From positions 1 to 64,000 of IMG/VR virus record IMGVR_UViG_3300029305_003710: a DNA stretch of 64,000 bases. The stretch is one strand, 5' to 3'. Within the stretch, counting starts at the first letter, position 1. Every line of letters begins with the position of its first letter. Origin of the DNA: a virus. Its lineage: Duplodnaviria; Caudoviricetes. Below are positions 6,278 through 33,001 of this stretch, piece by piece. Made by a program: the position numbers and the translations under genes. The notes beneath the pieces are model-generated. The model was not told where the DNA came from. It was given only the letters and a program-made list of their open reading frames with translations, and did not search any database.

Positions 6278-6854
6278 AGACAAGAAAACGGGTGGAAACG
6301 TTAATGTTAAGATAACCTTTGAGACGGAATATACGGACGAAATTGAAGCTAAAACCTATAAGGGTAAGCCTTTGACACTTAAACTGCTTGCGGAATGTTT
6401 TGAGGATGTTCCTGAAGAGATTAAATCATGGGAAGAAGTCATGCAAATTAAGGAGCTCCCGAGCGGTCTTAAAATCGCAGACCAGGATTATTACGAGATT
6501 CTTCCGGGCGGAACGAAGAAGACCAAGTTTACTTGGGATGAAGCCATGGAGATTGAGAGGAAAACAAACGGCAAGTGGCGAGTCCCCTCCTCGAAAGAAC
6601 TCAAACGTCGGAATGCTTATGTGATTCTTAAAGAGGATACGAAGGGGTTTGTGCCGAACTGGACGGATAAAGACCAGCCGAAATATTATGCCGTATACAA
6701 CTATTACGACAATAGAGTAGATGTTAATATTGCGTGGAGCTATAAAGCTCATGGATGGGGACTCTACTTTGCTACAAAGGAAGACATCCGAGCATCTATC
6801 AAGAATCATAAGCAGCTTTGGCTCGACTATCTAGGTGTTGAGGAGGAAGAATGA
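6267..6854 (+). CDS. Hypothetical phage protein
   Basis: SD aggag; C-terminal FVPNW...KYYAVY...YFATKEDIRASI pattern common in phage proteins. Confidence 0.65.
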   Translation: MLLKDKKTGGNVNVKITFETEYTDEIEAKTYKGKPLTLKLLAECFEDVPEEIKSWEEVMQIKELPSGLKIADQDYYEILPGGTKKTKFTWDEAMEIERKTNGKWRVPSSKELKRRNAYVILKEDTKGFVPNWTDKDQPKYYAVYNYYDNRVDVNIAWSYKAHGWGLYFATKEDIRASIKNHKQLWLDYLGVEEEE

Positions 6855-7294
6855 GCAGAGAAATTGCGTTTAGAGCATATTATAAGCCTCTTAAAAAATA
6901 CTTGCCAATCGACAGTATTTTGTTTAAGATTGGAGCAGTTAAAGGCTCAGACCCGTTAGAAATTGTTAGTCTTGGGGAAGTTTCATCCTTTGCTCTTTAT
7001 GGAGTGGAACGACCAAATGTAGCCACGCCAGTCCCCCCCGAGAGCGTTATCATTGAGCAATATACTGGCTTAAAAGATAAGAACGGCAAAAAGATTTATG
7101 TTGGTGATATTCTGGAAACTTGTTGTGGAAAAGCGGAAGTGTATTTTGATGACGAACTTTTAACGTATAAGATAGTGGTAAGACATGGTGGGACAATGCC
7201 ACTTGTTGGCAAAAAATCAGCAAGACACTTCGACTATGAAGTTATCGGCAACGCGCGCGAAGATAGGGAGTTGTTAAATGATTGGAAGGAGTAA
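6851..7294 (+). CDS. YopX-family protein
   Basis: REIAFRAY...IEQYTGLKDKNGKKIYVGDIL...EVIGN. Confidence 0.9.
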   Translation: MSREIAFRAYYKPLKKYLPIDSILFKIGAVKGSDPLEIVSLGEVSSFALYGVERPNVATPVPPESVIIEQYTGLKDKNGKKIYVGDILETCCGKAEVYFDDELLTYKIVVRHGGTMPLVGKKSARHFDYEVIGNAREDRELLNDWKE

Positions 7295-7296
7295 GT

Positions 7297-7512
7297 ATGA
7301 GTAAATATGTTTTAAAACCAAAATACTATGACTCTATCGTACAGGACAACCTTTTCGTTGCTGAGATTACTCTTTCTGAAGGCCCAGACAGAGATAACGA
7401 AACTCGCGGTAGGATTATTATGGAAACTGGACTAGGCTCTACATTTTTCACGAGTTTTGATGAGTTTTACGATAGATATGAGGTGATAGGAAAGGCAAGT
7501 AAGTATGATTAA
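7297..7512 (+). CDS. Hypothetical protein
   Basis: SD aaggag, ATG 7297. Confidence 0.6.
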   Translation: MSKYVLKPKYYDSIVQDNLFVAEITLSEGPDRDNETRGRIIMETGLGSTFFTSFDEFYDRYEVIGKASKYD

Positions 7513-7879
7513 AATTTGGGTAGATGATGAAAGACCAATGCCAGAGGGGTATGATTATTGTGCTACTTCGGTATTTGACGCTATTCGAGTAATAACGGAG
7601 GCTATGAGAGAGGCGAGGGAAGGCGGATATGAAGCAGAATGCTCCGTGGGAGCGATTTTATTAGACCTCGACCACGACTCGGGCTACGGGTTAGGGGGAG
7701 ATTTTATCGAGATATTAAAGTATTACTCTCTCCCAGATTTTAGGTGGAGTTTTGGGACTAAAGAAACTCGAGGTTATAATCCCCCGCTTTATGTTAGGTT
7801 TCATTCCGCCAACCCTGTCGGAGTTAAAAATATGCGGGTAATCGTGGAGAGTTGCCCGTGGATGGAGGAGATAGAATGA
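7505..7879 (+). CDS. Cyclic-phosphate-processing receiver-like domain protein
   Basis: IWVDDERPMP...LDLDHDSG...HSANPVGVKNM. Confidence 0.8.
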   Translation: MIKIWVDDERPMPEGYDYCATSVFDAIRVITEAMREAREGGYEAECSVGAILLDLDHDSGYGLGGDFIEILKYYSLPDFRWSFGTKETRGYNPPLYVRFHSANPVGVKNMRVIVESCPWMEEIE

Positions 7880-9615: not shown

Positions 9616-9933
9616 ATGAAGATTATTGATAATATTTTGGATAAATATTATAGCCGAAAACTTATCGAAATAACCTTGTCTCATATTCGTACACATTTTA
9701 GTCAAGCTGTTTCTATTAATTATGACAAAGTTCTTGGGGAGTGGACTTTAGACGTTCTTTTGGAAGGGGAGGAAGATTTTACTCTATCCTATATTGCGTT
9801 TCGTAGACAAAATGCAGTAATCGTTCTAAATCGTCTTTTAGCAACGGGCTGGACGAATCTTGATAAAGATTTTTTGAACAGAAAAAAACGAATCGAACGG
9901 GCCAAAAAGGAGGAGCATGCAGAGTTCATTTAA
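9616..9933 (+). CDS. Hypothetical protein
   Basis: TATAAT 6 nt before ATG. Confidence 0.65.
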   Translation: MKIIDNILDKYYSRKLIEITLSHIRTHFSQAVSINYDKVLGEWTLDVLLEGEEDFTLSYIAFRRQNAVIVLNRLLATGWTNLDKDFLNRKKRIERAKKEEHAEFI

Positions 9934-10585
9934 CGAAATGTATCATCACATTGAAGCTCCGACAATTAGCAAGCATTTGGGCATAAGAAAACGTGAACTT
10001 TATATCCCGACTCATCAGGATAATAAAATCGAATATTATAGTAAGCCTCTTTTTTGGTATCTTTCCACTCTTCAATGGCAGTATAAACGCAAACTTAACG
10101 GAGAGAATCTTCGGGTTAAGTGGGATGGCAACAGGGTAGTTTGGAATGGCAAAACAAACGCCTACCAAGCTTCAAAGAAGTTGACCAATTATATGAAAGA
10201 AACCTTTGTAGAAGAAATTTTCGAAGAAAGGTTCGGGCGGGATAAAACCGTGCTTTTGTTTGGTGAGCATATGGGGGAAAAGGTCCAAGGGAATGAGCTA
10301 GGGCTAGAAAAGCCAGAATTCGTTTTGTTCGATGTAAAAATTGGTGAATTTTGGCTTGAACCTGAGGATGTAGAAGAAGTCGCAAAATATTTTTGGCTTC
10401 GTACTTATAAGGATTTTGGAGATACAGGACAAGATACGCTTATAAATCTAATCTCTCGTACGGCTATTGGGGATTTTAAGGAATGGGAGAGAATTGTTGC
10501 TACTCCGAAGATAAGATGCTTACAGCCAAACGGAGAAAGAGTAATTTGCAAGATTAAAAATAAGGATTACGCAATCCATGGATAA
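9917..10585 (+). CDS. RNA ligase-like nucleotidyltransferase
   Basis: Motif I RKLNGENLR, LFGEHMG, FVLFDV, ERVICKIK. Confidence 0.8.
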   Translation: MQSSFNEMYHHIEAPTISKHLGIRKRELYIPTHQDNKIEYYSKPLFWYLSTLQWQYKRKLNGENLRVKWDGNRVVWNGKTNAYQASKKLTNYMKETFVEEIFEERFGRDKTVLLFGEHMGEKVQGNELGLEKPEFVLFDVKIGEFWLEPEDVEEVAKYFWLRTYKDFGDTGQDTLINLISRTAIGDFKEWERIVATPKIRCLQPNGERVICKIKNKDYAIHG

Positions 10586-11065: not shown

Positions 11066-11139
11066 GTGGGAATAGTTTAATGGAAAAACTACTGCCTCCA
11101 AAACAGTCGTTCTCTGTTCGATTCGGAGTTCCCACGCCA
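11066..11139 (+). tRNA. tRNA-Trp(CCA)
   Basis: Acceptor gtgggaa/ttcccac, loop ctccaaa, TTCGA, encoded CCA. Confidence 0.9.
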
Positions 11140-11144
11140 AACAC

Positions 11145-11231
11145 GCTAGTATAGGAAAGCGGTCAAATCCAACAGACTGTAAATCTGTCGCCCTCGGGCT
11201 TCGGTTGGTTCAAATCCACCTGCCAGCACCA
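11145..11231 (+). tRNA. tRNA-Tyr(GTA)
   Basis: acaga-ctgtaaa-tctgt, long variable arm, CCA. Confidence 0.9.
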
Positions 11232-11232
11232 T

Positions 11233-11307
11233 CTGGGGTTGGGAAAGCGGCAATCTGCCTCGCTTGGAACGAGGAGAAGGTCAGTTCGACTCTGACACCC
11301 CAGACCA
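11233..11307 (+). tRNA. tRNA-Pro(TGG)
   Basis: cctcg-cttggaa-cgagg, CCA. Confidence 0.92.
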
Positions 11308-11310
11308 GAA

Positions 11311-11395
11311 TCCAGAGTGACGGAATTGGTAAACGTAGTACCCTGTTAAGGTGCCGCCAATAGGTTTGTCGGTTCGAACCCGACCTCTGGAGCCA
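11311..11395 (+). tRNA. tRNA-Asn(GTT) with atypical 13-nt variable arm
   Basis: gtacc-ctgttaa-ggtgc; U1-A72, G73, CCA; 85 nt. Confidence 0.85.
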
Positions 11396-11398
11396 TAA

Positions 11399-11472
11399 GG
11401 CTGATTGAGGGAGCAGTTACCTACATCTCTGCAAAAGATGTTAGACTGGGGCAGCACCAGTATCAGCCTCCA
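11399..11472 (+). tRNA. tRNA-Cys(GCA) with non-canonical T loop
   Basis: catct-ctgcaaa-agatg; U73; T loop GGCAGCA. Confidence 0.8.
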
Positions 11473-11476
11473 AAAT

Positions 11477-11553
11477 GGTCATGTAGCTCAGTTCGGTAGA
11501 GCAGAGGCCTGAAGAGTCTTGTGTCGCTAGTTCAAATCTAGCCGTGACCACCA
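11477..11553 (+). tRNA. tRNA-Phe(GAA)
   Basis: gaggc-ctgaaga-gtctt, CCA. Confidence 0.92.
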
Positions 11554-11554
11554 A

Positions 11555-11631
11555 TGGAAAGTAGGCGAATTGGTAAAGCCACCACTCTCTGAAAGTGGAG
11601 TTTGAAGGTTCGAGACCTTCCTTTCCAACCA
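11555..11631 (+). tRNA. tRNA-Gln(CTG)
   Basis: ccact-ctctgaa-agtgg, U1-A72, CCA. Confidence 0.9.
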
Positions 11632-11639
11632 AGTAATTA

Positions 11640-11714
11640 GTGGGTTTCGTATAACGGCTAATATGCCATTCTTCCAAAGCGGAGATGGAGTTTCGACTAC
11701 TCTAACCCGCACCA
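11640..11714 (+). tRNA. tRNA-Gly(TCC)
   Basis: Loop cttccaa, imperfect anticodon stem, CCA. Confidence 0.8.
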
Positions 11715-11715
11715 T

Positions 11716-11792
11716 TTTCGGGTAGATGAATTGGTAGAATCACTCGGCTTTGACCCGAGAGTTTGGCGGTTCGAGTCCGCCCCCGAAAGCCA
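11716..11792 (+). tRNA. tRNA-Gln(TTG)
   Basis: ctcgg-ctttgac-ccgag, U1-A72, G73, CCA. Confidence 0.92.
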
Positions 11793-11794
11793 AA

Positions 11795-11953
11795 TGGTGT
11801 GCGTAGGAAATCAGCAAATCCGCCTGTTATTAAGGACAGCGCTTGTCGTTCATCCCAAGATGAGTTATAATGAAGGTGCGGGCAAATGTAAAATTCTTCC
11901 CAATGCAACTGGTTTGACCGATGACGAGGGACTGGGAGACCTCGGCTCGCACA
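11795..11953 (+). ncRNA. Unclassified ~160-nt structured RNA between tRNA-Gln and the mini-tmRNA
   Basis: Closed by tgtgcg / cgcaca; internal hairpins; co-transcribed position in the tRNA array. Confidence 0.5.
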
Positions 11954-11954
11954 A

Positions 11955-12064
11955 GGGGCAGAAATTAGCTTAGAGCATCTCCGAAGTATATAGGCGAAAA
12001 TTGCTAAATACTAAAGCCTAGAGTAAGAAATGCGACTCGGCGGCGGTAGCCGACTGCTCCACCA
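11955..12064 (+). ncRNA. Miniature tmRNA-like RNA (Ala tRNA-like domain, 110 nt)
   Basis: Acceptor ggggcag/ctgctcc with G3-U70, A73, CCA; 13-nt D loop ending GA; helix gcat/atgc; GAC variable loop; T arm tcggc/gccga; no anticodon arm or pseudoknots. Confidence 0.75.
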
Positions 12065-12074
12065 AGGAGTAAAA

Positions 12075-12290
12075 ATGTTAATTTATTTGGACAACGAACA
12101 AGCAAAAACCCTCACAGATATTCTCGAAGGCACAATTCGTCTGGATGAGATGACGGACTGGGCAGACTATGCAGATGACCACCTCGGACGGATAGTCAGA
12201 ATAGAAAAACCCGACCTCGTAGCAGCCTCCAAATCTAGGGTCAAGCTTTGTAAAGACCTCATTAAGAAGGTGGAACCTATGATACAATAA
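12075..12290 (+). CDS. Hypothetical protein
   Basis: SD aaggag, ATG 12075. Confidence 0.65.
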   Translation: MLIYLDNEQAKTLTDILEGTIRLDEMTDWADYADDHLGRIVRIEKPDLVAASKSRVKLCKDLIKKVEPMIQ

Positions 12291-15853: not shown

Positions 15854-16279
15854 ATGATATTAGCCCAAATTGCTAATACTCTCTATGATTCGGTCAATTT
15901 AGACAGACTTCTTCCTTATGAACGAGGACTTCTTAAAGTTGAACGATTTGATAGCTTGACTGGATTTATAGATAAGTGCGCCGCTAGGGGGAGATACGTT
16001 CTAATTAAGAATACTGTTGTTTTAGACCCTGGGGATATAGAACGTCTTTCCGAGGAGTCTTCTATGCATTCTTATGATGTGATTGGCTTTGGGAAAGAGA
16101 TATTTTTTGAGGATAGCTTCTTTTCGCTTACTGGGAACGCCATCAAGGAATGCGAAGGAGATTGGAGTAGGTTAAAAGATTTGGGTTACTCGTTGATAAA
16201 GATAGATAAGGAAAACAAAAATGCAAAAAATTATAATGTTGAAGGGGCTACCAGCATCTTTCAAAAGTTCGTGGGCTAA
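15854..16279 (+). CDS. Hypothetical protein
   Basis: 141-aa ORF. Confidence 0.6.
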   Translation: MILAQIANTLYDSVNLDRLLPYERGLLKVERFDSLTGFIDKCAARGRYVLIKNTVVLDPGDIERLSEESSMHSYDVIGFGKEIFFEDSFFSLTGNAIKECEGDWSRLKDLGYSLIKIDKENKNAKNYNVEGATSIFQKFVG

Positions 16280-17108
16280 AGAACAAGTTGCAAAGGGGGG
16301 TTATCTAAGAGTCAGCATGGATGATATTAGGGCATCTGTGTTTGGTGGTTGGTCTCCTAAGAAAGAAAAAGCTTGCCTTCGGTTGAGAGACAATATGGTC
16401 AGGTTTGGAATCGCTGAAGGTAAAAATGTAATCGTGGATGCGACTAATCTGAACCCGAAGCATAAGTATAGACTAAAAAGACTCGCAGAAGAACTAGGAG
16501 TAAAGTTTGAAATAAACGATTCCTTTCTAGAGAGAACCCCTGAGGAATGTATAGAGTCCGACCTTCATCGTGGAGAGGCTGCGGTGGGGGCTAAGGTAAT
16601 TTGGGAATTATTTTATCGTTGGGTTGCCCCCAATCCTTTAGAAAAATTACAAAAAGATTTCGATAAACCTAGGGCTGTATTATGCGATATCGATGGATGT
16701 CTTGCGATAAAAACAGGAGATAGAAGCTATTATGATATGTCTAGAGTCGGCGAGGATAGCGTTAACCCATTTGTAGGGTGCATAATCGACGCCTTAAGGG
16801 AATACGGACTAGAAGAAGGAGGGAAAAAATATCCGTATATTATACTCATATCAGGCCGAGGAGAGGAGGCGAGAGAGGCGACGGAAAAATGGCTTGCCCA
16901 GAACTGTATTGAATATGATAGTTTGATAATGCGGGATTTTGAGGATAATCGTTCAGACGAAATAGTAAAAAAGGAATTGTTCCAAAAACAAATAGAACCC
17001 TATTATGCTATACTAGGGGTAATAGATGACCGCCCAAAAGTCTGTCGTATGTGGCGAAGTCTGGGGCTGATGACTCTTCAAGCTGGCTTTCCAGAAGTGG
17101 AGTTTTAA
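16221..17108 (+). CDS. Polynucleotide kinase / 3'-phosphatase (T4 PseT-like)
   Basis: P-loop GLPASFKS, VDATN; HAD CDIDG, ISGR, IDDRPKVCRMWRSLG. Confidence 0.92.
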   Translation: MQKIIMLKGLPASFKSSWAKEQVAKGGYLRVSMDDIRASVFGGWSPKKEKACLRLRDNMVRFGIAEGKNVIVDATNLNPKHKYRLKRLAEELGVKFEINDSFLERTPEECIESDLHRGEAAVGAKVIWELFYRWVAPNPLEKLQKDFDKPRAVLCDIDGCLAIKTGDRSYYDMSRVGEDSVNPFVGCIIDALREYGLEEGGKKYPYIILISGRGEEAREATEKWLAQNCIEYDSLIMRDFEDNRSDEIVKKELFQKQIEPYYAILGVIDDRPKVCRMWRSLGLMTLQAGFPEVEF

Positions 17109-30604: not shown

Positions 30605-33001
30605 ATGGAGATTAGCGAAAAGCAAAAACAAGCGTATGAGCTTGCATTGAATCCGCAAATTACAGAACTCCTTTTAGGGGGAAGCGCAGGCGGAAGTAAG
30701 AGCTGGACAGTTTGTCAGATAGGCGTTTTGATAGCGAAGATGTATCCTGGTGTAAGAATCTTTGTCGGTAGGAAAACTCTTAAAAGTCTAAAACAATCTA
30801 CTATAGCTACGTTAGTGAATAAGGTTCATCCTGCATTGGGGCTTACTTATGATGATTATCGGCTAAGATTCTCCGATATGGAATTAGAATATAAGAATGG
30901 GTCTAAGATTATTTTTGGAGAATTGGACTATATCCCTTCGGATGAAGATTATTCGCGTTGGGGGTCGATGGAGTGCGATTTTGGGATAATTGAAGAGGCT
31001 GGCGAGATAGCGAAACAGGGGTTTAGTGTTATTAAATCTAGAACAGGACGTGGCATATTGGCTAAAGAATATGGGATTCCGGGGTTTGTGATTTTGACTT
31101 GTAATCCAAGTCAGAACTTTCTCAAAACCGAGTTTTATGACCCTTATGAAAAACTTGGCGGTGGAGGATTCCAAAAGTGGGAGATAGGCGAGATTACGCT
31201 GGATGAAGGCAAAGTAACTGAGAGAAAGGTTCCTGCATATAGGGCTTTTTTGAGAATGGGGGCATATGATAATCCCTTTCTCCCGAAAAGTTATATAGAT
31301 AACCTGAAGGTTTTGCCCGACCGTGAAAGAAAGAGGTTACTGGAGGGGAATTGGAATTATGCCGATGATGATAATATGTTATTTAAGTCTGGACTACTTG
31401 ATAAAGCAACAATCTATGAGTCACCCGTAGGAGAGAAGTTTAACTCCTATATTGGGTGTTTCGATGAAACGACGGAGGTCTTGACCGATGAAGGCTTTAA
31501 GAAGTTTAGAGATTTGAAGGGTAATGAACGCGTTTTAGCAAGAAGACCCAACGGGGTGTCTGAATATATCCCCTATGATAATTACATTGAGTATGACTAT
31601 GCAGGTGAAATGTATGAGATTGAACGACAAGGGGCAAGTGTTTTTGTAACACCTAACCATAAAATGTTGTGTGCCCCCGCTAAAGGGGAGACGGAGCTTC
31701 GAGAAATCCAAGAGATAACTGATAAGGAGTGGCGCATTATTCGTCAGCATGAGTTCCGTCAAGGATTATTTCAAGATGAGTTTCCATTTGAACTGGGCTA
31801 TAATAAAAAAGATTTCTTTGCCTTTTTGGGGTGGTTCATCTCGGAGGGATGTGTTTGTGGGCTAGCGAGCGTGAATATCACACAACGCGATGTAAAGAAA
31901 AAGGACGCGATTCGCGCTCTGTTGACTAAAATGAGGATTAGATTTTCTGAAAGTGAGCAAAACTTTAACATAAGCAATAGGAAGCTGGCGTCCTGGCTTC
32001 TCGAACATGTCAAAAAATACGCCCACAATAAAGAAATCCCCCGCCTCGTGACTTACTGTAGTAATTGGAGTTATGTAGAGGCCTTTCTCGACGCGTATTG
32101 CGATGGTGACGGGATGAGAAGAAAAGGGCAACGACTTTGTTATGTGTCGTCGTCTAAAAAGATTATGGATAGTTTACAGATTATTCTGTCGCACTTTAAT
32201 CGGCAAGGCCGTATATCGTTGAAAGAGAAGGCGGGGTCTGAAACTATTATCGAGGGAAGAAAAGTGGTTAGATTGCATGATGTTTATATATTATATGAAC
32301 GTTGGCAGGATAGTGATGTTTGGGTAAAAAATTATAAGGCGGAGCAAAAAGATTTTAACGGGAAGGTGTATTGCGTAGCAAATCGTTATCATACAATTTT
32401 TGTGCGCCGGAACGGAGTGTGTTACTGGATTGGGAACTGCGATGTAGCCGACAAGGGAAAAGACTTGACTTGCTTTACCTTGATAAAAGATGGGGTAGTG
32501 GTTACTCAAAAGATTGCGGGAGCAAGTATTGATAATAATTTTAATCAACCTATTGGCAGGATTTTAGCCGATGAGTTAGTGGAGTTCGCTCAAAAGAATG
32601 GTTTTACCTCGAAAGAAGCTCGAAATATCGCTATTGAATGCAATGGGGTAGGTAGCTCCATCCGAGATATGATGAAATTGAGAGGGTGGTATTTTACGGA
32701 ATATACCGCTACTCATAAAAGTAGAAGTGAAAATTACTATCAGTTAATGTTAGATATGGACTCAGGGGATATTAAATTGTATCATGAAATGCTAGGGTTA
32801 GAGGATTTGAAAAAAGAGCTTTCGGCACACACTTACGAGATGAATCTCCAAGTACCTGATATATGCAAAAAGGAGAAGATTAAACAAGCTTTAGGTCATT
32901 CCCCAGATAGGTCGGACTCTCTTACGATTGCTAATTGGTGTCGGCATCAAAATACAGACAAACGTGGGGAACATTACAACTCTTCCAGAATAATTTTTTA
33001 A
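30605..33001 (+). CDS. terL: Terminase large subunit with intein
   Basis: GGSAGGSKS, IEEAGE, TCNPS, DNPFL, IG|CDVA, IECNGVG, SPDRSDSL. Confidence 0.95.
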   Translation: MEISEKQKQAYELALNPQITELLLGGSAGGSKSWTVCQIGVLIAKMYPGVRIFVGRKTLKSLKQSTIATLVNKVHPALGLTYDDYRLRFSDMELEYKNGSKIIFGELDYIPSDEDYSRWGSMECDFGIIEEAGEIAKQGFSVIKSRTGRGILAKEYGIPGFVILTCNPSQNFLKTEFYDPYEKLGGGGFQKWEIGEITLDEGKVTERKVPAYRAFLRMGAYDNPFLPKSYIDNLKVLPDRERKRLLEGNWNYADDDNMLFKSGLLDKATIYESPVGEKFNSYIGCFDETTEVLTDEGFKKFRDLKGNERVLARRPNGVSEYIPYDNYIEYDYAGEMYEIERQGASVFVTPNHKMLCAPAKGETELREIQEITDKEWRIIRQHEFRQGLFQDEFPFELGYNKKDFFAFLGWFISEGCVCGLASVNITQRDVKKKDAIRALLTKMRIRFSESEQNFNISNRKLASWLLEHVKKYAHNKEIPRLVTYCSNWSYVEAFLDAYCDGDGMRRKGQRLCYVSSSKKIMDSLQIILSHFNRQGRISLKEKAGSETIIEGRKVVRLHDVYILYERWQDSDVWVKNYKAEQKDFNGKVYCVANRYHTIFVRRNGVCYWIGNCDVADKGKDLTCFTLIKDGVVVTQKIAGASIDNNFNQPIGRILADELVEFAQKNGFTSKEARNIAIECNGVGSSIRDMMKLRGWYFTEYTATHKSRSENYYQLMLDMDSGDIKLYHEMLGLEDLKKELSAHTYEMNLQVPDICKKEKIKQALGHSPDRSDSLTIANWCRHQNTDKRGEHYNSSRIIF
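31457..32437 (+). mobile_element. Intein (327 aa, Cys1...Gly-Asn, +1 Cys) with LAGLIDADG endonuclease
   Basis: CFDETTEVLTDEG; VTPNHKM; FLGWFISEG, FLDAYCDGDG; VYCV...WIGN. Confidence 0.92.

What the first reader, a model, noticed from the sequence alone, without database searches (positions are those of the whole stretch)
11955..12064. 110-nt miniature tmRNA: complete Ala tRNA-like domain with almost no mRNA domain
Seen: acceptor ggggcag/ctgctcc with G3-U70, discriminator A and encoded CCA; 13-nt D loop ending in GA; helix gcat (11975-11978)/atgc (12030-12033); 3-nt GAC variable loop; T arm. Only ~50 nt lie inside, forming one hairpin taggc/gccta whose region reads AKIAKY* (11994-12014) or ENC* (11996-12007). 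Known: these are the hallmarks of the tmRNA tRNA-like domain recognised by AlaRS and SmpB; bacterial tmRNAs are about 300-400 nt with pseudoknots, and domain-only forms are known mainly from some mitochondria. Inference: a minimal ribosome-rescue RNA that frees stalled ribosomes with little or no degradation tag, or an SmpB decoy that blocks host trans-translation. Best candidate here for an undescribed system.
Basis: partly seen in the sequence, partly recalled or inferred. Interest (0 to 1): 0.9.

Follow-up and report, generated by a model that had tools for sequence, protein, structure and literature searches.

The report
Phage mini tmRNA-like alanine tRNA mimic
A conserved 110-base RNA gene beside a phage's tRNA genes has the alanine-accepting top half of a tRNA but no anticodon arm, like the tRNA-like end of the bacterial ribosome-rescue RNA (tmRNA); it probably lets the phage interfere with, or replace, the host's rescue of stalled ribosomes.

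Summary

I found eight distinct homologues of 108-112 nt. All lie in uncultivated phage contigs, and six of the eight sit in or next to tRNA arrays. On seven of them, 95% of cells pair and 19 of 25 pairs show compensatory changes. Acceptor pairs 1-4, including the G3·U70 wobble, A73 and the encoded CCA, never vary.

The fold has:
- a 7-bp acceptor stem and a 5-bp T arm
- a stemless D-loop
- a GAC connector
- a long arm: an 8-bp helix 2, an invariant GAA/GAGUA internal loop, then a 5-bp hairpin with a 20-nt loop

This is tmRNA tRNA-like-domain (TLD) architecture. However, ARAGORN and the Rfam tRNA, tmRNA and mt-tmRNA models do not detect it. Only the 3' 31 nt weakly match alpha_tmRNA.

The proposed tag ORFs are not conserved. 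One member has no stop codon at all.

A precedent exists, so the idea is not new: mycobacteriophage DS6A carries a TLD-only tmRNA, and such molecules inhibit E. coli tmRNA.

Best reading (0.5): an alanyl-accepting, tag-less TLD mimic that acts on SmpB and stalled ribosomes. This is a new, divergent variant of a known kind.

The scan also noted the adjacent upstream RNA on this same window; no other DNA held a look-alike.

The parts
11843..11871 (+). Promoter-like site (TTGTCG, 17 nt, TATAAT). It would start a transcript about 75 nt upstream of the RNA.
   Evidence: 10 of 12 matches. Homologous TATAAT-type promoters precede the RNA or its upstream element in L139, L170, L173 and G001. This is a consensus match only; function is inferred.
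11877..11952 (+). Co-transcribed upstream structured RNA element, which serves here as the 5' leader. It has an 8-bp outer stem and a hairpin with the loop GACUGGGAG. It is not an obligatory partner of the mini RNA.
   Evidence: Conserved, with compensatory changes seen by eye, in L139 (about 1057-1137) and L170 (about 6840-6925). It is absent from the L137, L151, L171 and G001 loci. There is no Rfam match.
11955..12064 (+). The whole mini tmRNA-like RNA, 110 nt.
   Evidence: The covariance model built from its relatives scores it at 131.8 bits. Seven other members score 80-126 bits.
11955..11961 (+). Acceptor stem, 5' strand (GGGGCAG). G1-G4 are invariant.
   Evidence: pairs 1-4 are identical in 7 of 7 sequences, including G3·U70; pairs 5-7 covary.
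11962..11974 (+). D-loop analogue. It has no D stem, contains the invariant blocks TTAG and TAGA, and ends in GA next to helix 2.
   Evidence: invariant columns.
11975..11982 (+). Helix 2, 5' strand (8 positions).
   Evidence: 7 of its 8 pairs show changes on both sides.
11983..11985 (+). Invariant GAA, lying opposite the invariant GAGUA. Together they look like a loop-E / bulged-G (S-turn) internal loop.
   Evidence: Invariant in all aligned members. The motif assignment rests on my recalled consensus (AGUA opposite GAA) and is not tested.
11991..11995 (+). Apical hairpin, 5' strand.
   Evidence: all 5 pairs covary, and 100% of cells pair.
11996..12015 (+). 20-nt apical loop. It carries an A-rich run and the invariant GCU (12003-12005).
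   Evidence: GCU is invariant, but the sequence after it is variable.
12016..12020 (+). Apical hairpin, 3' strand.
12021..12025 (+). Invariant GAGUA.
   Evidence: The third base of that triplet (12026) pairs with 11982 and covaries with it.
12026..12033 (+). Helix 2, 3' strand.
12034..12036 (+). GAC connector between helix 2 and the T stem.
   Evidence: GAC in 7 of 8 members and CAC in L139. GAC is conserved at the equivalent place in tmRNAs (PMC1168896).
12037..12053 (+). T arm: a 5-bp stem and the 7-nt loop GGCGGTA.
   Evidence: 4 of 5 pairs covary. Positions 2-3 of the loop (GC) are invariant. The arm matches the alpha_tmRNA model consensus.
12054..12060 (+). Acceptor stem, 3' strand (CTGCTCC), with U70.
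12061..12064 (+). Discriminator A73 and the encoded CCA end. The Shine-Dalgarno sequence of the next ORF (12075-12290) follows at once.
   Evidence: ACCA is invariant in all members.

Best explanation
Window 11955-12064 encodes a stable tRNA-like RNA of about 110 nt. A clade of uncultivated tailed phages carries it, mostly in or beside their tRNA arrays.

Proposed mechanism:
1. It is transcribed from a sigma-70-type promoter or together with the tRNAs (inferred).
2. RNase P cuts at G1, and the 3' end is trimmed to the encoded CCA (inferred from its position 2-5 nt after tRNAs).
3. The host alanyl-tRNA synthetase charges it, because G1-C72, G2-C71, G3·U70, G4-C69 and A73 are invariant (inferred).
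4. It has no anticodon arm. Instead it has the architecture of a tmRNA tRNA-like domain: a stemless D-loop, a GAC connector, a helix-2 arm and a T loop with G at its second position, as in alphaproteobacterial and mitochondrial tmRNAs.
5. I therefore propose that it binds SmpB and EF-Tu and enters ribosomes stalled on broken mRNAs. It carries no conserved tag reading frame.

The net effect would be one of two things. It could compete with host tmRNA and so block tagging and trans-translation. Or it could give tag-less rescue, with release completed by other factors.

The structure, its conservation and the identity elements are shown here. Charging, SmpB binding and the effect on trans-translation are inferred.
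For: - **Anatomy and covariation.** Searches support all four helices. On 7 sequences, 19 of 25 pairs change on both sides and 95.4% of cells pair, against 35-49% with slid partners.
- **Alanine identity.** The weak G3·U70 wobble and pairs 1, 2 and 4 are invariant in every member, while pairs 5-7 covary freely.
- **Genomic setting.** The RNA lies 2-5 nt after tRNAs in L137, L151, L170 and L171. In L173 it lies 13 nt before a genuine tRNA-Ala(UGC), so it is not the phage's own tRNA-Ala.
- **Match to tmRNA.** The 3' part aligns to alpha_tmRNA model positions 89-120. GAC before the T stem, and G in place of U in the T loop, are documented tmRNA features (PMC1168896).
- **Precedent.** DS6A's 83-nt TLD-only tmRNA is at L148:28478-28560. 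A similar molecule strongly inhibits tmRNA, perhaps by titrating SmpB (PMC4131195, PMC11915505).
- **Context.** The phage encodes an RNA ligase, a PNKP and a Ro-like DUF2828 protein. HicA-family RNase genes sit beside the RNA in G001 and L170. E. coli HicA induces cleavage of mRNAs and tmRNA (PMC11594946).
Against: - ARAGORN does not call it.
- The Rfam tRNA, tmRNA (RF00023) and mt-tmRNA (RF02544) models give no hit. The alpha_tmRNA match is 16.5 bits against a gathering score of 50. By contrast, DS6A's TLD scores 43 bits on RF00023.
- The D-loop lacks the GG...UUCGAC block of bacterial tmRNAs.
- The T loop differs among members.
- The host, and therefore its SmpB and tmRNA, are unknown.
- The phage encodes no SmpB.
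- The invariant GAA/GAGUA internal loop and the invariant GCU in the apical loop are not needed by a simple SmpB decoy. They hint at another partner.
Confidence: 0.5

Rival explanations
1. It is a true miniature tmRNA. After alanine transfer, the ribosome resumes on the invariant GCU in the apical loop and translates a 3-7-codon tag. It terminates at an in-frame stop, which frees the ribosome with a short tag that is not a degradation signal.
For: - GCU is invariant.
- It is preceded by an A-rich run with A at position -4, as in tmRNA resume sites.
- Seven of eight members have a stop within 8 codons in that frame.
- In five of those, the stop falls in the conserved GAGUAR block.
Against: - L170 has a 1-nt insertion in the loop and no stop before the 3' end in the GCU frame.
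- The would-be tags are unrelated: AKY, AKI, ATRKSLE, ALIKILE, ASKKSLE, ATTLSSE and ATNQS.
- The +1 frame also has stops in 6 of 8 members.
- The bases of the 'stop' belong to the invariant internal loop. The third base pairs with the opposite strand and covaries with it.
- There are no pseudoknots.
- Only 3-15 nt separate the stop from helix 2, so the tRNA-like domain would have to be unwound.
Confidence: 0.12
2. It is an alanine-accepting tRNA mimic with a role outside trans-translation. Possibilities include a decoy or sponge for a host tRNA- or tmRNA-directed defence nuclease or sensor, a sponge for AlaRS or EF-Tu, a donor for non-ribosomal alanyl transfer, or a scaffold for a phage protein that binds the GAA/GAGUA loop.
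For: - It fails every curated tmRNA and tRNA model.
- It has invariant motifs that TLD function does not explain: the internal loop and the GCU in the apical loop.
- The phage is rich in RNA-repair and tRNA-mimic features (note e1-5847591).
- Defence systems with SmpB-like domains have been predicted (PMC11090510).
Against: The whole architecture is that of a tmRNA TLD: an Ala acceptor, a stemless D-loop, a GAC connector and a helix-2 arm. No specific alternative partner was identified. The adjacent 71-aa ORF is missing from G001.
Confidence: 0.25
3. It is an RNA partner of phage-encoded HicA. It could be an antitoxin or a protected substrate mimic. Or it could be a HicA-resistant replacement for host tmRNA that the phage's own RNase destroys.
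For: In G001 the HicA ORF (PF07927, 46 bits) overlaps the first 8 nt of the RNA, and no HicB was found. L170 has a HicA gene in the same tRNA region, 1.4 kb upstream. E. coli HicA induces cleavage of tmRNA (PMC11594946).
Against: Only 2 of 8 loci show HicA. The window's phage has none. Only one HicB family was searched.
Confidence: 0.06
4. It is not a functional gene: a decayed tRNA-Ala, an intron-bearing tRNA, or an attP-type fragment of a host tmRNA gene.
For: Phages often carry the 3' ends of ssrA at attachment sites. More than 120 viral contigs hold alpha-type acceptor pieces.
Against: - Both acceptor strands are present.
- All helices show compensatory changes in eight lineages.
- Length is constant at 108-112 nt.
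- Identical copies occur in independent assemblies.
- A genuine tRNA-Ala lies next to it in L173.
- None of the other alpha-type hits has a 5' strand in standard order at 60-200 nt.
Confidence: 0.03

Closest known systems
TLD-only ('standard, no CDS') tmRNA of mycobacteriophage DS6A (Mao et al. 2009; tmRNA Website; PMC4131195, PMC11915505)
   Same: - Phage-encoded.
- GGGG start with G3·U70, a stemless D-loop, a helix-2 stub closed by about 20 nt, a T arm and no tag frame.
- The phage also carries an RNA ligase (RtcB-like in DS6A).
   Different: - DS6A's RNA is 83 nt. It keeps the canonical D-loop and T-loop sequences and scores 43 bits on Rfam tmRNA.
- The RNA here is 108-112 nt. It has a longer arm with an invariant GAA/GAGUA loop and a second hairpin, and a non-canonical T loop. 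It encodes CCA, where DS6A ends in CUA. No tmRNA model finds it.
Mitochondrial tmRNAs of jakobids and oomycetes (Rfam RF02544); CDS-less plastid forms
   Same: - A tRNA-like domain without a tag frame.
- G replaces U in the T loop (PMC1168896).
- They are thought still to help with broken mRNAs alongside SmpB (PMC11915505).
   Different: These are organellar and usually circularly permuted two-piece genes. RF02544 gives no hit here.
Alphaproteobacterial two-piece tmRNA (Rfam RF01849), including copies in pelagiphages and phage Melnitz (PMC9004378)
   Same: The T arm and acceptor 3' strand of the window copy match the model consensus, including the GGCGGUA T loop.
   Different: Those genes are permuted, 300-400 nt long, have pseudoknots and encode a proteolysis tag. 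Here the gene is in standard order with no tag. The other family members have different T loops (KGCRR(N)UW).
Phage T4 species 1 and 2 stable RNAs (rnaC, rnaD)
   Same: Small stable RNAs of 119-139 nt encoded at the end of a phage tRNA cluster. Their function is unknown, and rnaC has tRNA-like 3' parts.
   Different: They have no GGGG/CUCC alanine-type acceptor stem and no encoded CUCCACCA end. No sequence similarity was seen by eye.

Membership tests
tmRNA (tRNA-like domain) | A 7-bp acceptor stem with G3·U70, discriminator A73 and a CCA end (the AlaRS identity set) | tested here: met
   Pairs 1-4, including G·U, are invariant in 7 of 7 aligned members, and also in L173.
tmRNA (tRNA-like domain) | A stemless D-loop analogue, a helix 2 in place of the anticodon arm, and a GAC connector before the T stem | tested here: met
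   GAC in 7 of 8 members. GAC conservation in tmRNAs is described in PMC1168896.
tmRNA (tRNA-like domain) | A 5-bp T stem with a T loop of the tmRNA type | tested here: inconclusive
   The stem is met, with 4 of 5 pairs covarying. The loop is not the common UUCRANY. It resembles the alphaproteobacterial/mitochondrial variant with G at position 2 (PMC1168896), and it varies within the family.
tmRNA (any form) | A match to the curated models (RF00023, RF01849, RF02544) at gathering score, or a call by ARAGORN | tested here: not met
   The best match is 16.5 bits against 50, over 31 nt only. RF04321 was part of the library scanned and gave no hit.
tmRNA (full function) | An mRNA-like domain with a resume codon and a conserved in-frame stop that encodes a tag | tested here: not met
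   GCU is invariant, but the tags are unrelated and L170 has no stop.
tmRNA (full function) | Pseudoknots (PK1-PK4) | tested here: not met
   Only one covarying hairpin lies inside helix 2.
tmRNA (any form) | Alanylation by AlaRS, and binding of SmpB and EF-Tu | not testable with these tools
   This needs biochemistry. The host, and so its SmpB, are unknown. The phage has no SmpB gene.
tRNA (RF00005) | A cloverleaf with a D stem and an anticodon stem-loop | tested here: not met
   Not called by ARAGORN or Rfam. No D stem or 7-nt anticodon loop can be drawn.
Phage T4 rnaC/rnaD stable RNAs | Sequence or structural likeness beyond their position at the end of a tRNA array | tested here: not met
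   They lack the alanine-type acceptor, and no similarity was seen. This was inspection only; no formal alignment was run.

The most novel reading that the evidence does not exclude
The RNA is a self-sufficient miniature ribosome-rescue RNA, the smallest natural one known. It would be charged with alanine. Its long helix-2 arm, with the invariant S-turn-like loop and the GCU-bearing apical loop, would reach the empty decoding centre and mRNA channel, with or without SmpB. It would then free stalled ribosomes with a very short tag or none. Phages would deploy it, in some lineages together with a HicA RNase, to replace a host tmRNA that they or host defences destroy.
Probability: 0.12. Interest if true: 0.9.

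Novelty: new variant of a known kind. Interest (0 to 1): 0.62.

Why it matters
TLD-only tmRNAs in phages have rested on one example, DS6A, and on experiments with an analogous molecule in E. coli.

This family shows that an unrelated group of uncultivated phages has kept a much more divergent alanine-type tRNA-like domain under clear purifying selection. Standard annotation tools (ARAGORN, Rfam) miss it.

It adds to the evidence that the tmRNA-SmpB pathway is contested between phages and hosts. Here the RNA sits alongside phage tRNA arrays, RNA ligases, a PNKP, a Ro-like protein and HicA-type RNases.

It is a compact, well-defined 110-nt RNA with a covariation-supported fold. That makes two questions directly testable:
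- What is the minimal RNA that AlaRS, SmpB and stalled ribosomes will accept?
- Can a tag-less tRNA-like domain rescue trans-translation, or can it only poison it?

Tried and rejected
**Collection scans**
- The alpha-type T-arm pattern returned at least 120 viral contigs. All the others are ordinary permuted tmRNA acceptor pieces or att sites.
- A pattern with the C..G loop-closing pair, and two D-loop patterns, gave only chance hits.
- The first metagenome pattern found nothing.
- The relaxed pattern found L151, plus 13 chance hits. By inspection of the flanking sequence these look like recA genes of AT-rich Clostridia; they were not translated.
- The last loop pattern found only G001.

**Searches of deposited phage genomes**
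- BLAST of three members against 50,697 phage records found no homologue.

**Relatives fetched through proteins**
- The DNA polymerase exonuclease subunit gave no related viral loci.
- Contigs for P0002 and P0011 had no DNA available.
- L172 has the ligase but no mini RNA.

**Ideas tested and dropped**
- The upstream 160 nt as the coding piece of a two-piece tmRNA (note e1-5847577). Its ANV... frame loses its stop in L139, and the element is absent from four other loci.
- The apical NGC as an alanine anticodon, or GCU as a serine anticodon in a 7-nt loop. No closing stem exists, the flanking bases are inconsistent, and the arm is too long.
- The 71-aa downstream ORF as an obligate partner. It is absent from G001 and has no Pfam or PHROG match.
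- Host identification. TerL relatives are only about 35% identical, from Bacteroides and Polaribacter phages. The 'Acetobacter sp.' MAG label on L173 sits on a 41% GC contig and its genome is not held.

**Other**

Full report
**What is there**

The window belongs to an 84,152-bp IMG/VR virus record rated complete. It has about 41% G+C, and almost all its genes are on the + strand.

An array of eight tRNA genes lies at 11066-11792, each with an encoded CCA. The candidate follows 162 nt later, at 11955-12064.

- GGGGCAG pairs with CTGCTCC, giving G3·U70.
- A73 and CCA are encoded.
- A 13-nt segment cannot form a D stem and ends in GA.
- A helix starts at 11975 and pairs with 12033.
- A GAC connector follows.
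- A 5-bp T stem carries a 7-nt loop.
- A 5-bp hairpin lies inside.

ARAGORN does not call it. No Rfam family reaches its gathering score. A permissive Rfam scan of 11790-12120 gives one relevant hit. The last 31 nt of the RNA (12034-12064: GAC, T arm, acceptor 3' strand, ACCA) align to positions 89-120 of the alphaproteobacterial tmRNA model, including its unusual GGCGGUA T loop. The match as listed runs on to 12120. It scores only 16.5 bits against a gathering score of 50. The minimum-free-energy fold of the single sequence is unremarkable (z -1.43).

**Is it more than chance?**

Yes. Homologues of the 71-aa ORF that starts 11 nt after the CCA led to contigs carrying the same RNA:
- identical copies in five independent JGI and ENA assemblies (L140-L144)
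- diverged copies in L137/L138 and L139

A motif scan added L151.

A covariance model built from four members then found further copies:
- in the related complete phage G001 (86 bits)
- in L170 and L171, two contigs fetched through homologues of the neighbouring RNA ligase (106 and 116 bits)
- in L173, a 108-kb NCBI contig (80 bits)

The eight distinct members are 108-112 nt long.

On seven of them:
- 95.4% of pair cells are standard pairs.
- 19 of 25 pairs show changes on both sides.
- None of 500 shuffles reaches the observed values for cells paired, pairs changed on both sides or covariation score.
- Sliding the partners by 1-3 columns drops pairing to 35-49% (earlier stages).

RNAalifold predicts the same 25 pairs on its own. 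A misassembled fragment of a longer tmRNA is therefore excluded.

**Anatomy from the comparison**

- **Acceptor stem, 7 bp.** Pairs 1-4 are invariant, including the weak G3·U70 wobble. Pairs 5-7 change freely with compensation. This is the pattern expected if the AlaRS identity set is under selection, rather than mere pairing.
- **D-loop analogue, 12-13 nt in seven members (11 nt in L173).** It carries the invariant blocks TTAG and TAGA in the seven aligned members.
- **Helix 2.**
- **Internal loop.** An invariant GAA (11983-11985) faces an invariant GAGUA (12021-12025). From memory, AGUA opposite GAA is the loop-E / bulged-G consensus. That assignment is a lead, not a test.
- **Apical hairpin, 5 bp, all pairs covarying.** Its 20-nt loop has an A-rich run and an invariant GCU (12003-12005).
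- **GAC connector.** Present in 7 of 8 members.
- **T stem, 5 bp, 4 pairs covarying.**
- **T loop.** It reads K-G-C-R-R-(N)-U-W across the family, with GC invariant.

GAC before the T stem, and G in place of the usual U in the T loop, are both described for tmRNAs. The latter is described for Caulobacter and the Reclinomonas mitochondrion (PMC1168896).

**Genomic setting**

- In L137, L151, L170 and L171 the RNA starts 2-5 nt after a tRNA.
- In L173 it is the first gene behind a consensus promoter. A genuine tRNA-Ala(UGC) follows 13 nt later, so it is not a substitute for a phage tRNA-Ala.
- In the window, a promoter-like site at 11843-11871 would give a transcript whose first 75 nt form another conserved structured element (see 'Noticed in passing').
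- The window's phage also encodes an RNA ligase (9917-10585), a PNKP (16221-17108) and, beyond the window, a Ro-like DUF2828 protein.
- In G001 a HicA-family ORF (PF07927, 46 bits) overlaps the first 8 nt of the RNA, and no HicB of family PF15919 was found.
- L170 has a HicA gene 1.4 kb upstream, in the same tRNA region.
- The window's phage has no HicA and no SmpB.

**Does it encode a tag?**

Probably not.
- From the invariant GCU the frames read AKY, AKI, ATRKSLE, ALIKILE, ASKKSLE, ATTLSSE and ATNQS.
- L170 has a 1-nt insertion in the loop, and the frame runs to the 3' end without a stop.
- The +1 frame has stops in 6 of 8 members as well.
- The recurrent UAA/UAG lies in the invariant GAGUA block. 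Its third base pairs with the opposite strand and covaries with it. RNA structure explains its conservation.

**What it most likely does**

The RNA has the features a tmRNA tRNA-like domain needs in order to be processed, charged with alanine and taken to a ribosome. It has none of the features needed for decoding, and no conserved template.

The closest precedent is the TLD-only tmRNA of mycobacteriophage DS6A. I located it at L148:28478-28560. It is 83 nt and scores 43 bits on Rfam tmRNA, with 312 model positions deleted. The tmRNA database papers state that such a molecule, chargeable or not, strongly inhibits tmRNA, perhaps by titrating SmpB (PMC4131195; PMC11915505, citing Mao et al. 2009). 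They also note that CDS-less mitochondrial forms persist together with SmpB.

I therefore rate the readings as follows:
- A tag-less TLD mimic acting on SmpB and stalled ribosomes: 0.5. I cannot say whether it acts as a competitor or as a tag-less rescuer.
- A different role for an alanine-accepting mimic: 0.25.
- A genuine short-tag mini tmRNA: 0.12.
- A HicA-linked role: 0.06.
- A non-functional relic: 0.03.

**Membership versus likeness**

By architecture it works like a tmRNA TLD. By the curated sequence and structure models it is not a recognisable member of any tmRNA family. The biochemical hallmarks could not be tested. I file it as a new, divergent variant of the known 'TLD-only tmRNA' kind, not as a proven tmRNA.

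**Limits**

- The host is unknown. The promoters and strong Shine-Dalgarno sites only suggest a sigma-70, SD-using bacterium. The 'Acetobacter sp.' label of L173 sits on a 41% G+C contig.
- No expression data could be obtained.
- The family was found only in uncultivated contigs, and not in 50,697 deposited phage genomes.

Noticed in passing
window 11877-11952 (+); L139 about 1057-1137; L170 about 6840-6925: A second conserved structured RNA lies just upstream, behind its own TATAAT promoter. It has an 8-bp outer stem and a 5-bp hairpin, both with compensatory changes between the window and L139. The hairpin loop GACUGGGAG is invariant and could pair with an invariant CUUCC. There is no Rfam match. 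In L139 a terminator and a new promoter separate it from the mini RNA.
   Followed up: partly
L167 1317-1508 (G001, 7373-7564 in the record); L170 5584-5886: HicA-toxin-family ORFs sit in phage genomes beside the mini RNA. In G001 the stop codon lies inside the RNA's first 8 nt, and no HicB of family PF15919 is found in the phage.
   Followed up: partly
L139 855-1320: Three closely spaced TGnTATAAT promoters are each followed by 100-200 nt without an ORF, and one is followed by a terminator. This suggests a cluster of small RNA genes upstream of the mini RNA.
   Followed up: no
L134 1575-1860 (G001, after its four tRNAs): About 280 nt of non-coding sequence with a promoter and a terminator. 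It ends in a 26-nt hairpin, GGGCUGA...UUGGUCC-ACCA (1800-1825), that would have a G3·U70-type pair and a CCA end.
   Followed up: no
window 30605-33001 (+): In this 798-aa ORF, residues 1-270 match the terminase large subunit. Residues 285-612 match proteins annotated as thymidylate synthase or methylase in other phages. It may be a fusion or an insertion.
   Followed up: no
G000 contig 75929-76663 (-), beyond the window: A 474-aa ORF matches DUF2828, a Ro-like TROVE/vWA family, at 83 bits.
   Followed up: partly
L170 1612-2730 and 10210-11364: Two IS605 OrfB / Cas12f-like (TnpB) genes lie inside the related phage contig, flanking the tRNA and mini-RNA region.
   Followed up: no
L173 (NCBI GCA_023665325.1, contig JAMPED010000004.1): A 108-kb contig of 41% G+C, with phage-like genes, a tRNA operon and the mini RNA, is deposited in a MAG labelled Acetobacter sp. 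It is probably a phage genome binned with the MAG.
   Followed up: no
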